Source: a phage. From it: a stretch of 64,000 bases of DNA. The stretch is from the sequence record PV467749.1. One strand, 5' to 3'. Made by a program: the position numbers and the translations under genes. Below, piece after piece: positions 26,161 through 46,327 of the stretch (the first letter of the stretch is position 1; each line of letters opens with the position of its first letter). The notes below the pieces were generated by a model. The model was not told the DNA's origin and made no database searches. It saw nothing but the letters and a program-made list of their open reading frames with translations.

Positions 26161-26321
<161 letters not shown>

Positions 26322-26325
<4 letters not shown>

Positions 26326-26482
26326 ATTCGTACCAGTAGTTCAATTAAGTACATTTCATATGCTGGATCGTTGATAAGTTTATCATACAGATGTGGCTCT
26401 GAAATGAATTCCCAATGATACTTTAGCCATTTACCGATACCCGAATATCTAAAATTAATATCATTCATCCATTCTTCATGTG

Positions 26483-26486
<4 letters not shown>
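26322..26486 (-). CDS. MTHEEW small-protein family, copy 2 (54 aa)
   Basis: MTHEEWMNDINFRYSGIGKWLKYHWEFISEPHLYDKLINDPAYEMYLIELLVRI; ATGA overlap with neighbours. Confidence 0.45.
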
Positions 26487-26647
<161 letters not shown>

Positions 26648-42789: not shown

Positions 42790-43218
42790 TTATAGGGAAG
42801 CTTCGTATTCAGCTACAATGTCAACCATCTCATTGACAAAGTTGATGTGGTCATGAGTTACGGTACGGAAATCATAAACCAGTGATTGTTGGAAGAATAC
42901 GTCTTCAGCCAGATTACCTTCAAAGTTCAGGTCGATGTTTTCTTCATCGTTGGTTGGAGCAACTTTGATATTTAGTTGATTTTCATCAACGACCAATTTC
43001 ACTACACAACCCAATGCAATCGCCAGTACATAGGCAGGTTTCTTAGCTGCTTCAGAACGGAATGGAGCACGTAGTGCACAAATGGTGCTGCTAATCTCAT
43101 CATTCAGTTCTTTATATTTAACGTTAATCATCAGTTCTTCAATTTTGACGCTCTCGATTACACGACCAGTTTCAGCAGCGAAGAAAGAGTGGTTACGGAT
43201 AGTTTGTTCGATATTCAT
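42790..43218 (-). CDS. FQxS-motif paralog family protein
   Basis: C-terminal AEDVFFQQSLVYD. Confidence 0.55.
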   Translation of the reverse strand: MNIEQTIRNHSFFAAETGRVIESVKIEELMINVKYKELNDEISSTICALRAPFRSEAAKKPAYVLAIALGCVVKLVVDENQLNIKVAPTNDEENIDLNFEGNLAEDVFFQQSLVYDFRTVTHDHINFVNEMVDIVAEYEASL

Positions 43219-43221
43219 GTG

Positions 43222-43416
43222 TTATTCCTTATATAGATTGCTAAAGTTACGAAGATTACGGTTTGCTTTAAACTGTTTTAAATCACCAAATCTATCATCA
43301 ACGATAAAAGTGGCAGACTGTTTTGATTGGCATATTGTACAAATCAACATACCCTGTATTGTATACTCGGTTGAACAATTTGTACAGTACTTTTTTTCAT
43401 AAAGTTCAGTACTCAT
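43222..43416 (-). CDS. small zinc-ribbon protein
   Basis: CTNC...CTIC Cys pairs in 64 aa. Confidence 0.4.
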   Translation of the reverse strand: MSTELYEKKYCTNCSTEYTIQGMLICTICQSKQSATFIVDDRFGDLKQFKANRNLRNFSNLYKE

Positions 43417-43748
43417 AAAACCTTCACATCACTACGTTTATCTCTTTCTTCTTTCTTTACCTCATCGGAGCGGGTATCTTCTAATTGTAACACAACTTCT
43501 TTCAGAATGTCAACATCAATCATTGCTTCTTTGTATTGAAAGTCGTTTACGCCGAAAATATACTTCAATGCAACCCATACACGTTTGTACCATTTTAAGA
43601 AAGGATTCAAACGCATACTCACCAGACATTGACCAAGTTTATCATCTCCATGTTCTTGTGTCAAGTCAAATTGTGAAATGTGAACACAATGTTCCGTATT
43701 ATCGCCACAACTACAACGCACTATAAATTCTTTGCTGTCTTTGCTCAT
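43413..43748 (-). CDS. hypothetical protein
   Basis: 111-aa ORF. Confidence 0.45.
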   Translation of the reverse strand: MSKDSKEFIVRCSCGDNTEHCVHISQFDLTQEHGDDKLGQCLVSMRLNPFLKWYKRVWVALKYIFGVNDFQYKEAMIDVDILKEVVLQLEDTRSDEVKKEERDKRSDVKVL

Positions 43749-44167
43749 ACTGGATAAGCCTTCATAAATTGTTTTAGAACTCCAAACTTAGAAGCACTGT
43801 AATCATACTGATAACTTAGCTCACGTTTATCATTCATTCGATAAACCATATGATTGTTTGGATAACCTATTCTAACAGGTTTGTTAGGATTTGCAAGCAA
43901 AATTGCCCATTCTTTTACAGGAAAAACGTTTTCAGATAACATCTTCACATCTTTACTGTAATACTTCATTGCTTGGGTACAGTGCTTGTAATCTTCAGCA
44001 CTCAGTTCTTCACACACAACACTGTGTGTTTCAGTACTGGATACCCATGACTCTTCTTCATAATATAAGTCAATTACATCTTCTACGGTATAGCTATCAG
44101 GTAAATCATAATATACCCAATTACTAAAACCAGAGCTTACACCAACTCGAATTCGATAGTACTTCAT
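43745..44167 (-). CDS. hypothetical protein
   Basis: 140-aa ORF. Confidence 0.5.
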   Translation of the reverse strand: MKYYRIRVGVSSGFSNWVYYDLPDSYTVEDVIDLYYEEESWVSSTETHSVVCEELSAEDYKHCTQAMKYYSKDVKMLSENVFPVKEWAILLANPNKPVRIGYPNNHMVYRMNDKRELSYQYDYSASKFGVLKQFMKAYPV

Positions 44168-44331
44168 ATTTTTTTATCATCCGATTTTACATAATAGTAA
44201 CATACAATGCAGTGAATTACAAGAAGAATAATTTCTACTACATTCAGTGCCACAACATGCCCTTGCGGGACCGTAAGTGACAATAACAACATTATAGTAG
44301 GTATTACGAATATTGTCAATGTTTTTTTCAT
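44164..44331 (-). CDS. small membrane protein
   Basis: Start placed at Met14 of ORF-track 44164..44370 (MKKTLTIFVIPTIMLLLSLTV...); upstream part is a degenerate tandem duplicate. Confidence 0.35.
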   Translation of the reverse strand: MKKTLTIFVIPTIMLLLSLTVPQGHVVALNVVEIILLVIHCIVCYYYVKSDDKKI

Positions 44332-44418
44332 TTTATTTCCTTGTGGGACCGTAAGTGACAATAACAACATTATAGTAGGTATTACGAATATTGTCCATGT
44401 TTTTTCATTTTATTTCCT
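44262..44418. repeat. tandem direct repeat, 2 x ~78 bp
   Basis: Two near-identical units differing at 2-3 positions; each contains RBS+ATG and a TTGACA/TGGACA-17-TATAAT motif on the minus strand. Confidence 0.7.
44291..44319 (-). promoter_or_regulatory. sigma-70 consensus promoter (TTGACA-17-TATAAT)
   Basis: Perfect -35 and -10 hexamers with 17-nt spacer on minus strand, inside repeat unit A. Confidence 0.5.
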
Positions 44419-44641
44419 TAATGTAGGCAAATGGTAAAAATACAACCTCTACCCCAGGAAATGCAGTTGCGAGTGCATCAACTATAGATTTGTTTTTATT
44501 ACATTGCCATACTTTTGTAACTTTGTGCTGGAATACCTTGCCATCTTTTACTAACCAATACATTTGCATTTTAACAGTACTGTTATCAGATGGTATTAGT
44601 AAATCTTCCATATCATATGAATTAAAGATTCTCTCGTTCAT
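44405..44641 (-). CDS. hypothetical protein
   Basis: 78-aa ORF. Confidence 0.4.
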   Translation of the reverse strand: MNERIFNSYDMEDLLIPSDNSTVKMQMYWLVKDGKVFQHKVTKVWQCNKNKSIVDALATAFPGVEVVFLPFAYIKEIK

Positions 44642-44900
44642 ATAATCTCCTAGTGAAAAAAGCCAGATTCTTTCTTATATATTCGGCGACACAATCAGTA
44701 GTTTGTGTATTTGTGAATGCAACAACTTCATTCGATACACCATTCCCATTACACAATGGACAAATCCCCATATACTTAGGTGTTGGAACTGTATCTAGTT
44801 TATATTTCCCTGAAGATATCATGTATTGTTGTGGTAATACATCCAAAGAAATAATATAATCTTCATCGAATTGCTTACAACATACCCAACATTTACTCAT
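44622..44900 (-). CDS. small zinc-binding protein
   Basis: CWVCC...CPLCNG Cys clusters. Confidence 0.45.
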   Translation of the reverse strand: MSKCWVCCKQFDEDYIISLDVLPQQYMISSGKYKLDTVPTPKYMGICPLCNGNGVSNEVVAFTNTQTTDCVAEYIRKNLAFFTRRLYERENL

Positions 44901-45384
44901 TGTGGTTCTCCTTCAAAACAATTCTTATATCTTCGAATGTTTTAACAAACCAGTCATGTTCATCAGATACATCAACCACCTTCCCACCATAAACATAGTA
45001 ATGGTAGAAGGGTAACTTACTTTTCCTCAATCGTTCAGCAAGTTCTGGGTTTTGAAATATCTTAGCACATATTGCATCCTGGATACGAGAAATGCATTCG
45101 GGTGTCATTTCAATACGGTCGTGCATATACTTGTTCGCCGCTGCTTTTGCAGCAGCACCCGACACTTTTCTAAGATCATCATGTTTCTGGCCTGTTAAAA
45201 ACCAAAAATAAAAAGTTTCTACCGATGGGAACCAACCGTATGGTTCTAAGGTAAAACTATGTGACGAAAAGTTAGATAGATCCCTACCTAACTTAGTTTT
45301 AGCTTTACTATAGATATTAATGTGTCTGTATCCGTCATCAGTAGGGTCAATATAGTTAAATGACTCTTCAGGAAATTCAAACAT
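44893..45384 (-). CDS. hypothetical protein
   Basis: 163-aa ORF. Confidence 0.5.
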   Translation of the reverse strand: MFEFPEESFNYIDPTDDGYRHINIYSKAKTKLGRDLSNFSSHSFTLEPYGWFPSVETFYFWFLTGQKHDDLRKVSGAAAKAAANKYMHDRIEMTPECISRIQDAICAKIFQNPELAERLRKSKLPFYHYYVYGGKVVDVSDEHDWFVKTFEDIRIVLKENHNE

Positions 45385-45386
45385 AA

Positions 45387-45740
45387 TTACTCTTCTTCAC
45401 CAGATGGTGTACCACGCAGTTTATCAAAATCAACCCAAATACCATGCTGGTTTTTGAAGCGACATTTCTCATAGTACCAGCTATAGTCGGTTTCAACACC
45501 CTGAGAAATTGAACGAACACTACAGTCATACATATTGTATAAATGTGTACGTACAATGAATGTTCCTATAAGAAGAACAAACACAACAATCCCAGTACAG
45601 ATCTTTGGATGATCCATAATTAGGTCCAACACAGAACTGGTTTCAGTACTATCAATTTTACTACGACCGATAGCAACAACTTTCAGTACTGCTAATGATA
45701 CCAGTAATGAAATAACAAGAACACTCAAATAAATTAGCAT
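45387..45740 (-). CDS. membrane protein
   Basis: 117 aa, two TM helices. Confidence 0.45.
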   Translation of the reverse strand: MLIYLSVLVISLLVSLAVLKVVAIGRSKIDSTETSSVLDLIMDHPKICTGIVVFVLLIGTFIVRTHLYNMYDCSVRSISQGVETDYSWYYEKCRFKNQHGIWVDFDKLRGTPSGEEE

Positions 45741-45742
45741 AT

Positions 45743-46327
45743 TTAGACTCCTACCCCAAAACGTAAAAGGATGTTATTAACAAACACAAAATCAAATGGA
45801 GACTTTGGTTCAGATACCGAGTACTGGAAAGTTTCAGTGGCAAAATTTTCCCTATTATGCCATGTTGATGAATCGATTAGTAATTGTTTATCACCAATTG
45901 ACGTTGAATGTAATGGGACGTGTGCTGATGAATTTATAGAATACGCATTTAGTTTTCCTTGTTCATCAAATGTAACACAAAGGTAATATCTCTTCTTAAC
46001 ATCAGGAGAACGCTCTTTAATATACGAATATATTGATTCATTCAAATCATCATCATTCCTTGTCTTAGCACCGAGAACTTGAGCAAAAGACAAATTACGT
46101 TTCGGTTGGATCGTTCCTGGTCTTTTTAGAATGAATTCTTTTGTTAAGTAAAAGTTATTGTGTTTTACCTCAATATTAACAGTTTTAAAGTTTGTGATTT
46201 TGTCATATACGTTCCTAAAAACTGTTATATCCCATGAACTAATTTCTTGCATCGTTACCGTAACTAGTTCTTCTAGTTCTTGGATAAATGGCAAATCGTC
46301 TTGATCAAATCTAATCACAGTTTTCAT
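45743..46327 (-). CDS. hypothetical protein
   Basis: 194-aa ORF. Confidence 0.5.
   Translation of the reverse strand: MKTVIRFDQDDLPFIQELEELVTVTMQEISSWDITVFRNVYDKITNFKTVNIEVKHNNFYLTKEFILKRPGTIQPKRNLSFAQVLGAKTRNDDDLNESIYSYIKERSPDVKKRYYLCVTFDEQGKLNAYSINSSAHVPLHSTSIGDKQLLIDSSTWHNRENFATETFQYSVSEPKSPFDFVFVNNILLRFGVGV

What the first reader, a model, noticed from the sequence alone, without database searches (positions are those of the whole stretch)
44262..44418. Tandem 78-bp duplication carrying a perfect sigma-70 consensus promoter inside a small-gene start
Two adjacent repeat units differ at 2-3 positions. Unit A contains RBS + ATG of a small membrane-protein gene and, within its first codons, TTGACA-17-TATAAT on the minus strand. 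Unit B is a degenerate copy (TGGACA -35, frameshifted start). The duplication creates the artificial-looking N-terminal extension of ORF 44164..44370 and may provide tandem promoters for the operon beginning at 44167.
Basis: seen in the sequence. Interest (0 to 1): 0.5.

Follow-up and report, generated by a model that had tools for sequence, protein, structure and literature searches.

The report
Polymorphic 78-bp duplication of embedded promoter
In a jumbo E. coli phage, a recent 78-base tandem duplication found in only some isolates has copied a small gene's start together with a conserved host-type promoter hidden in its first codons; this is a tidy but fairly ordinary example of phage micro-evolution.

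Summary
The repeat is real: 44261-44419, units of 77 and 78 nt, differing by two substitutions and one 1-nt indel. The window comes from an Asteriusvirus jumbo coliphage with all genes on the minus strand.

The duplication varies between isolates. Five GenBank isolates and one metagenome contig have two copies. Six close relatives, 121Q and two Logan contigs have exactly one. The borders carry a 4-nt microhomology (AAGG).

The promoter reading is supported indirectly. TTGACA-16/18-TATAAT sites with at most one mismatch occur 37 times on the coding strand and never on the other. Non-canonical spacers give only about 0-2 sites each. The -10 inside the small gene is invariant in nine diverged homologues, and three diverged lineages have the perfect 12/12 match at the same codons. 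No transcription start has been mapped.

Unit B's TGGACA is the common single-copy allele, not decay. Unit A's TTGACA also exists as a single-copy allele, so the two units probably came from two alleles joined by unequal recombination. Only unit B's A7-to-A6 frameshift is decay.

A likely consequence is two tandem promoters, with the upstream one 37 nt before the intact small-gene start. Interest is modest.

The parts
44261..44419 (-). Whole tandem repeat: unit B (44419-44343, 77 nt), unit A (44342-44265, 78 nt), then the terminal AAGG (44264-44261)
   Evidence: TRF; the repeat finder; alignment; sequence
44343..44419 (-). Unit B, the upstream copy. It carries the common single-copy allele (TGGACA, CCA) but has lost one A (A6), so its start codon opens only an 8-codon mini-ORF.
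44265..44342 (-). Unit A, the downstream copy. It holds the Shine-Dalgarno sequence, the ATG and the first 22 codons of the intact 55-aa gene, and carries allele 2 (TTGACA, CCG).
44369..44397 (-). Predicted promoter P_B: TGGACA (44397-44392), 17-nt spacer, TATAAT (44374-44369). The predicted start is near 44362, giving a leader of about 31 nt before the ATG at 44331.
   Evidence: the start position is inferred from the usual 7-nt distance after the -10
44291..44319 (-). Predicted promoter P_A: TTGACA (44319-44314), 17-nt spacer, TATAAT (44296-44291), 12/12. It lies in codons 5-6 and 12-14 of the small gene. The predicted start is near 44284.
44382..44408 (-). Mini-ORF left in unit B after the A7-to-A6 frameshift (MKKHGQYS*). 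Its ATG overlaps the TGA stop of the upstream gene (ATGA).
   Evidence: sequence; comparison with single-copy relatives
44164..44331 (-). The real small gene: 55 aa with two hydrophobic segments (about residues 4-21 and 25-47). It was found only in Asteriusvirus records.
   Evidence: no PHROG or Pfam family
44405..44641 (-). Upstream 78-aa gene (phrog_13902, function unknown). Its last codons and stop lie inside unit B.
43745..44167 (-). Downstream 140-aa gene (phrog_15599, function unknown). It is the first complete gene that a transcript from P_A would contain, and its ATG overlaps the small gene's stop.
44416..44419 (-). AAGG microhomology at the duplication borders. The other two copies are at 44342-44339 and 44264-44261.
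   Evidence: sequence; single-copy 'empty site' sequences
44400..44405 (-). A6 run in unit B. It is A7 in unit A (44328-44322), in the single-copy relatives apart from the error-prone CMSTMSU record (A6), and in unit B of Ecwhy_1.

Best explanation
The window comes from an Asteriusvirus (121Q/PBECO4-like) jumbo coliphage whose genes here all lie on the minus strand.

The first codons of a 55-aa two-segment membrane-protein gene double as a host sigma-70 promoter that reads into the downstream genes. A recent illegitimate recombination at a 4-nt microhomology (AAGG) duplicated 78 nt, which is 26 codons. The duplicated piece runs from the stop/start junction and Shine-Dalgarno sequence to codon 24, so it includes the promoter. 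The two units match two alleles that both circulate as single copies. The event was therefore most likely an unequal crossover between two co-infecting genomes, not a duplication followed by divergence.

In most carriers the upstream unit then lost one A from its A7 run. That stops the unit from encoding a duplicated N-terminus and leaves it as a non-coding promoter copy.

The net results are inferred, not shown:
- There are two tandem promoters 78 nt apart.
- The upstream promoter ends 37 nt before the intact small-gene start codon, a distance within the range seen for other predicted promoters in this window.
- The small gene is no longer translationally coupled to the upstream gene.

The duplication is probably neutral or mildly beneficial.
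For: Repeat and anatomy.

Presence/absence between relatives:
- Two copies in BF17, EC.P1, fEgEco12, Ecwhy_1 and WPEC5.
- Exactly one copy, with a clean AAGG junction, in WPEC3, vB_Ec-M-J, Turkey3, CMSTMSU, TH47 and ph0011, and in 121Q.
- The two-copy form is also in ENA contig L019. A single-copy form carrying unit A's allele is in Logan contigs L017 and L018.

Origin from two alleles: in 1.5 kb the only differences that separate duplicated from single-copy GenBank genomes are the two inside unit A. Flanking SNPs are mosaic, which indicates recombination.

Promoter class:
- 22 sites with at most one mismatch at spacer 17, all on the minus strand, against 1.9 expected.
- 37 sites on the minus strand and none on the plus strand for spacers 16-18.
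- Spacers 8-15 and 19-28 give mostly 0-2 sites each, with 4 at spacer 22.
- About half of the sites lie 17-67 nt before the next ORF start.

Conservation at this site:
- TATAAT is invariant in 9 diverged sequences (6/6 columns), against 6/17 invariant spacer columns and 18/49 other columns.
- Codon 13 is always ATA, the rarest Ile codon in this window (16%).
- Codon 12 changes amino acid (T/I/A/V/L) but always ends in T.
- A4, JNE01 and Turkey5, whose proteins are 53-70% identical to this one, have the perfect 12/12 match at the same codons.

Literature: RpoD-like promoters with UP-like elements were predicted to cluster in regions of short ORFs in the related jumbo phage CBB (PMC5259590).
Against: - No transcription start data exist for any Asteriusvirus, so promoter activity is inferred.
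- A weight matrix built from the flanks of the other 35 sites does not separate this site from background. The site lacks the T/G-rich bases that many of the others have just before the -10.
- The conserved Ile-Met and the A-run (Lys-Lys) could be explained by protein constraint alone. In 121Q the -35 is only 4/6 and in UE-S1 3/6.
- The order of events cannot be settled. Unequal crossover between alleles is one route. Duplication, divergence and later collapse to a single copy is another.
- Nothing shows that the duplication changes expression or fitness.
Confidence: 0.65

Rival explanations
1. The duplication is neutral and the promoter look-alike is a coincidence. The slippage or recombination product is real, but the TTGACA-17-TATAAT match is a by-product of the codons for an N-terminal hydrophobic segment (Leu-Thr ... 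x-Ile-Met) and drives no transcription.
For: The site sits inside a coding sequence. Flank scores are no better than background. The -35 is weak in 121Q (4/6) and UE-S1 (3/6). About one site per spacer class is expected by chance on this strand.
Against: The background of about 1 site compares with 22 observed at spacer 17, so roughly 95% of such sites belong to the enriched class. The -10 is invariant, including at synonymous positions, and uses the rarest Ile codon. The perfect 12/12 match recurs in three diverged lineages although the spacer and the protein differ.
Confidence: 0.2
2. The duplication is an adaptive capture of a promoter that also splits two roles. The duplicated sequence both codes for protein and acts as a promoter. 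Duplication resolved that conflict: the upstream copy became promoter-only after the frameshift and now drives the small gene, which previously had no promoter of its own. The duplication was selected for higher or earlier expression of the small gene and the genes downstream.
For: P_B ends 37 nt before the intact start codon, within the 17-67 nt range seen at about half of the other sites. The frameshift is shared by the window and 5 of the 6 other sequenced two-copy genomes. In fEgEco12 unit B's -35 is also the perfect TTGACA. The two-copy form occurs in isolates from Poland, China, Finland and Thailand and on different flanking haplotypes.
Against: There are no expression or fitness data. 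The single-copy forms are at least as common. The difference between the units is explained by pre-existing alleles, without selection after the duplication. The changes seen in unit B are too few to test for constraint.
Confidence: 0.2
3. The repeat encodes a longer protein. Translation would start in unit B and continue in frame, either directly as in Ecwhy_1 (81 aa) or through ribosomal slippage on the A-run. The product would have a duplicated N-terminal hydrophobic segment.
For: 78 nt is exactly 26 codons. Ecwhy_1 has A7 in both units and an uninterrupted 81-aa ORF. A-runs are slippage-prone.
Against: The window and five other two-copy genomes have A6, and the unit B ORF stops after 8 codons. 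G AAA AAA C is not a canonical X XXY YYZ heptamer, and no stimulatory RNA structure is present (z = -0.33). The Ecwhy_1 record is flagged UNVERIFIED.
Confidence: 0.03
4. The repeat is an assembly or sequencing artefact.
For: Short tandem repeats and homopolymer runs are error-prone in assemblies.
Against: The same structure, with lineage-specific variants, is found in five independent GenBank genomes and one ENA metagenome contig.
Confidence: 0.01

Closest known systems
Sigma-70 (RpoD-like) early promoters of T4-like and Rak2-like jumbo phages (predicted for CBB and GAP32; PMC5259590)
   Same: Near-consensus TTGACA-17-TATAAT with an A-rich block just upstream. The sites point the same way as the genes and are dense in a region of short genes of unknown function.
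   Different: This one lies in codons 5-14 of a gene rather than at the end of the preceding gene or between genes, and here it is present twice in tandem. No member of this class has been mapped experimentally in Asteriusvirus.
Microhomology-mediated tandem duplication or segmental amplification in phage genomes. An example is the T4 amplifications selected under toxIN pressure. PMC9391042 appeared in search; the details are from my own knowledge.
   Same: Head-to-tail copies bounded by a few bases of homology. They arise by recombination and vary within the phage population.
   Different: This duplication is only 78 nt. It covers a gene junction and a promoter rather than whole genes, and no selective agent is known.
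Promoter-early stem-loop (PeSL) cassettes of T4-type phages (Arbiol et al. 2010; recalled from memory, not read here)
   Same: Repeated early-promoter sequences that take part in recombination and rearrangement of early regions.
   Different: There is no stem-loop. The unit occurs nowhere else in the window. It is a local tandem copy inside coding sequence, not a dispersed intergenic cassette.
Tandem gene arrays in the same window (three 54-aa paralogues at 26161-26647)
   Same: Tandem duplication in the same phage genome, with units joined at overlapping stop/start codons.
   Different: Those units are whole genes, older, and only about 82% alike. The 78-nt repeat is a partial gene start, 96% alike.

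Membership tests
Sigma-70-type phage early promoter | -35 TTGACA and -10 TATAAT hexamers separated by 16-18 nt | tested here: met
   Unit A scores 12/12 with spacer 17 and unit B 11/12 with spacer 17.
Sigma-70-type phage early promoter | Belongs to a site class enriched over chance, specific to the transcribed strand and to the spacer length | tested here: met
   22 sites against 1.9 expected. 37 on the minus strand and 0 on the plus strand. Spacers 16, 17 and 18 give 7, 22 and 8 sites, against mostly 0-2 (maximum 4) for other spacers.
Sigma-70-type phage early promoter | Hexamers conserved in homologues beyond what surrounding sequence shows | tested here: met
   The -10 is invariant in 9 sequences, against 35-37% invariant columns elsewhere. 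The match is 12/12 in A4, JNE01 and Turkey5. The -35 is weaker in 121Q and UE-S1.
Sigma-70-type phage early promoter | Shares the flanking features of the family (upstream A-rich block, T/G before the -10) | tested here: inconclusive
   The site has A at the A-enriched upstream columns, but its overall flank score is within the null distribution.
Sigma-70-type phage early promoter | A primary transcript 5' end mapped downstream of the -10 | not testable with these tools
   The searches found no transcription start mapping or transcriptome study of any Asteriusvirus; the two genome papers I opened (fEgEco12, Sharanji) do not mention promoters.
Microhomology-mediated tandem duplication | Head-to-tail copies with a short direct repeat at both borders and at the junction | tested here: met
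   AAGG at 44419-44416, 44342-44339 and 44264-44261.
Microhomology-mediated tandem duplication | Close relatives carry the exact single-copy 'empty site' | tested here: met
   Six GenBank genomes, 121Q and two Logan contigs have one unit flanked by the same sequences.
PeSL (promoter-early stem-loop) mobile cassette | A stable stem-loop next to the promoter | tested here: not met
   Fold energy is no better than shuffled sequence, z = -0.33.
PeSL (promoter-early stem-loop) mobile cassette | Dispersed copies at several intergenic sites | tested here: not met
   TRF over the whole window found this array only at 44261-44419 and the repeat finder over 43000-46000 found only the two adjacent copies. 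There is no exact match in IMG/VR or JGI metagenomes.
Programmed ribosomal frameshift site | An X XXY YYZ slippery heptamer with a downstream stimulatory structure | tested here: not met
   The zero-frame context is G AAA AAA C, and there is no significant structure.

The most novel reading that the evidence does not exclude
A sequence that both codes for protein and acts as a promoter escaped that conflict by tandem duplication. One copy was stripped of coding function by a frameshift and now serves purely as a promoter for the very gene it was embedded in. The other copy keeps coding. The arrangement is maintained by selection in part of the natural phage population.
Probability: 0.2. Interest if true: 0.5.

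Novelty: new member of a known kind. Interest (0 to 1): 0.3.

Why it matters
The direct importance is small. The case documents three states in natural isolates: two single-copy alleles and a two-copy form that joins them. It shows how microhomology recombination rewires promoter-gene arrangements in the tightly packed genes of jumbo phages.

It also explains why the small gene is annotated inconsistently in GenBank, as 55, 68, 77 or 81 aa.

WPEC3 (one copy) and WPEC5 (two copies) came from the same wastewater source and host. They form a ready-made natural pair for measuring what a promoter duplication does to phage gene expression.

The analysis also gives the first statistical evidence, controlled for strand and spacer length, for a dense set of sigma-70 promoters in an Asteriusvirus.

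Tried and rejected
- Exact-match scans for the repeat core found nothing in IMG/VR or JGI metagenome contigs, so they gave no further copy-number variants.
- I built a weight matrix from the flanks of the other 35 promoter-like sites to look for support beyond the hexamers. The repeat's sites scored within the null distribution, so this was uninformative.
- RNA folding of the repeat and of the predicted P_B leader showed no structure beyond shuffled controls. An attenuator, a terminator, a PeSL-like hairpin and a frameshift stimulator were all dropped for this reason.
- PHROG and Pfam searches gave no function for the small protein or its neighbours. The only hits were a weak RseC_MucC match for the small protein and a weak DUF6097 match for the 117-aa neighbour at 45387..45740, both below their cut-offs.
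- Literature searches found no transcription start or transcriptome data for Asteriusvirus and no earlier mention of this duplication.
- I first read unit A's two substitutions as changes made after the duplication, possibly under selection, because they are the only fixed differences in 1.5 kb. I withdrew this once single-copy contigs with exactly that allele turned up.
- I first took the window to be BF17, which is 100% identical over 1156 nt. Over 3 kb the two differ at 13 positions. Over 22 kb no GenBank record exceeds about 99.3% identity.

Full report
**1. The observation**

Tandem Repeats Finder reports an array at 44261-44419 with period 78, 2.1 copies, 96% matches and score 295. It is one of only two arrays scoring above 100 in the window. 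The repeat finder and a pairwise alignment agree that the units differ by two substitutions and one 1-nt indel.

All sizeable ORFs lie on the minus strand, where they cover about 90% of the sequence. Read on that strand, the upstream unit B spans 44419-44343 (77 nt). It contains:
- the last codons and the TGA stop of a 78-aa gene;
- an ATG (44408-44406) overlapping that stop as ATGA;
- an A6 run;
- TGGACA (44397-44392), a 17-nt spacer and TATAAT (44374-44369).

The downstream unit A spans 44342-44265 (78 nt). It contains:
- the Shine-Dalgarno sequence AAGGAAAT;
- the ATG at 44331-44329;
- an A7 run;
- TTGACA (44319-44314), a 17-nt spacer and TATAAT (44296-44291).

Unit A continues into an intact 55-aa ORF ending at 44164. 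AAGG occurs at both borders and at the junction (44419-16, 44342-39, 44264-61). The 68-aa ORF 44164..44370 listed by the ORF finder starts at the ATG inside unit B's TATAATG and has no Shine-Dalgarno sequence.

**2. Source and relatives**

The region matches Asteriusvirus jumbo coliphages of 350-385 kb (the 121Q/PBECO4 group). BF17 is 100% identical over 1156 nt. Over 3 kb the window differs from BF17 at 13 positions, and over 22 kb no record exceeds about 99.3% identity. The window is therefore from a close but distinct isolate.

I extracted the locus from eleven close relatives.
- Two copies: BF17, EC.P1, fEgEco12, Ecwhy_1 and WPEC5.
- Exactly one copy: WPEC3, vB_Ec-M-J, Turkey3, CMSTMSU, TH47 and ph0011.

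In the annotated single-copy genomes (WPEC3, vB_Ec-M-J, Turkey3, ph0011) the 78-aa gene and the 55-aa gene overlap by ATGA. The more distant 121Q also has one copy.

WPEC3 and WPEC5 come from the same wastewater source and host, yet differ in copy number. An ENA metagenome contig (L019) carries the two-copy form, identical to the window across the 230-nt repeat locus. The repeat is therefore real, heritable and variable in nature.

**3. Polarity of the differences**

All six single-copy GenBank relatives have TGGACA (Trp codon) and CCA, which is unit B's state. Five of them also have A7; the error-prone CMSTMSU record has A6.

Unit A's state (TTGACA, giving Leu5, plus CCG) also exists on its own. 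Two Logan contigs, L017 and L018, carry a single copy with exactly that allele. These cannot be collapsed repeats. The contigs contain 31-mers that join the upstream flank to the A7/TTGACA sequence, and a two-copy genome has no such 31-mers. This argument assumes the assembler used k = 31, which I know from memory and did not check.

Three states therefore coexist: single-copy allele 1, single-copy allele 2, and B(allele 1) + A(allele 2).

In 1.5 kb, the only differences that separate duplicated from single-copy GenBank genomes are the two inside unit A. Flanking SNPs are mosaic. The simplest reading is an unequal crossover at AAGG between co-infecting genomes carrying the two alleles. Duplication, then divergence, then collapse cannot be excluded.

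The only clear decay is A7 to A6 in unit B. It is shared by the window, BF17, EC.P1, WPEC5, fEgEco12 and L019, and it cuts the unit B reading frame to MKKHGQYS*.

Ecwhy_1, an UNVERIFIED record, keeps A7. Because 78 nt is 26 codons, it has an uninterrupted 81-aa ORF with a third hydrophobic segment. fEgEco12 has TTGACA in both units.

**4. Is the consensus match a promoter?**

TTGACA-N17-TATAAT with at most one mismatch occurs 22 times in the window, all on the minus strand, against 1.9 expected from shuffles. Allowing spacers of 16-18 nt gives 37 minus-strand sites and no plus-strand sites, and 11 of them are perfect.

A spacer control shows the enrichment is confined to spacers 16, 17 and 18, with 7, 22 and 8 sites. 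Spacers 8-15 and 19-28 give mostly 0-2 each, with 4 at spacer 22. Base composition cannot explain the strand bias, because the motif has equal numbers of A and T and equal numbers of G and C.

Roughly half of the sites lie 17-67 nt upstream of the next ORF start. This matches the RpoD-like promoters with UP-like elements predicted in the related jumbo phage CBB, where they cluster in a region of short hypothetical genes thought to be early (PMC5259590).

At this particular site I compared nine diverged homologous gene starts.
- The -10 is invariant (6/6 columns), against 6/17 invariant spacer columns and 18/49 other columns.
- Codon 13 is always ATA, the rarest Ile codon in this window (16%).
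- Codon 12 changes amino acid (T/I/A/V/L) but always ends in T.
- A4, JNE01 and Turkey5, whose proteins are 53-70% identical to this one, have a perfect TTGACA-17-TATAAT at the same codons although their spacers differ.
- 121Q has TGGAAA and UE-S1 has TGGATT.

Against this, a weight matrix built from the flanks of the other 35 sites does not lift this site above background, and protein constraint could explain some of the conservation. No transcription start data exist for the genus. I put the probability that the element is a working promoter at about 0.7-0.75.

**5. Likely consequences (inferred)**

In single-copy phages the promoter starts transcription near codon 16 of the small gene. It can therefore serve only the 140-aa gene at 44167 and the genes after it. 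The small gene itself depends on read-through from upstream and on ATGA coupling to the 78-aa gene.

After the duplication there are two promoters 78 nt apart. P_B's -10 ends 37 nt before the intact ATG at 44331, with a predicted start near 44362 and a leader of about 31 nt that includes the Shine-Dalgarno sequence. This distance falls within the 17-67 nt range seen at about half of the other sites. The frameshift turns unit B into a non-coding promoter copy and breaks the coupling to the upstream gene. Whether any of this affects fitness is unknown.

**6. Other readings**

RNA folding shows no structure beyond shuffled controls. That argues against an attenuator, a terminator, a PeSL-type cassette and a frameshift stimulator. 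The unit occurs nowhere else in the window, in IMG/VR or in JGI metagenomes. The small protein was found only in Asteriusvirus records (37 records) and has no PHROG or Pfam family.

**7. Verdict**

This is a new instance of two known things: a microhomology-mediated tandem duplication and a sigma-70 phage promoter. It has one neat twist, because the promoter is embedded in coding sequence and the duplication separates the two roles. Interest is modest, at about 0.3. The adaptive promoter-capture reading has a probability of about 0.2 and would raise interest to about 0.5.

Noticed in passing
window 26161-26647 (minus strand): There are three tandem paralogous 54-aa genes, each starting MTHEEWM. 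Each overlaps the next at its stop/start codons. TRF sees them as a 161-nt period array, 82% alike. This is an older, whole-gene tandem duplication in the same genome.
   Followed up: partly
window 26151-26124 and 25730-25702 (minus strand); also 7200, 3238 and 24971: Two predicted promoters 421 nt apart share an identical spacer (TTGACTaaatagttcagtactg(a)TATAAT). Several others share AGTACTG immediately before the -10. This suggests a promoter subfamily or copied promoter cassettes.
   Followed up: no
whole window: There are 37 near-consensus sigma-70 sites (at most one mismatch, spacer 16-18), all on the coding strand and 11 of them perfect. The set is denser than I expected, and it spans replication genes such as the clamp loader, Dcm methylase and exonuclease as well as short ORFs.
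   Followed up: partly
window 46937-46917 and 42070-42052 (minus strand): Terminator-like GC-rich hairpins followed by T-runs bracket the gene block that contains the repeat. No strong promoter (at most one mismatch) lies between the first hairpin and unit B, so the six genes from 46898 to 44405 have no obvious promoter of their own.
   Followed up: no
loci L004-L007 versus L001 (GenBank annotations of the small gene): The same gene is annotated as 55 aa (BF17, WPEC5), 68 aa (EC.P1), 77 aa (fEgEco12) and 81 aa (Ecwhy_1) because of the repeat. The 92-aa neighbour is labelled 'DNA primase/helicase' in fEgEco12, with no family support found here.
   Followed up: partly
L010 (CMSTMSU, MH494197): This record has many single-base indels relative to all relatives across 1.5 kb, including A6 in the single-copy small-gene start. 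These are probably homopolymer sequencing errors, and the record is flagged UNVERIFIED_ORG.
   Followed up: no
window 42831-45831 versus L001, L002, L017-L019: SNP patterns in the flanks are mosaic between isolates. For example, 45238-45334 groups the window with L017 only. This indicates frequent recombination among co-circulating Asteriusvirus genomes.
   Followed up: partly
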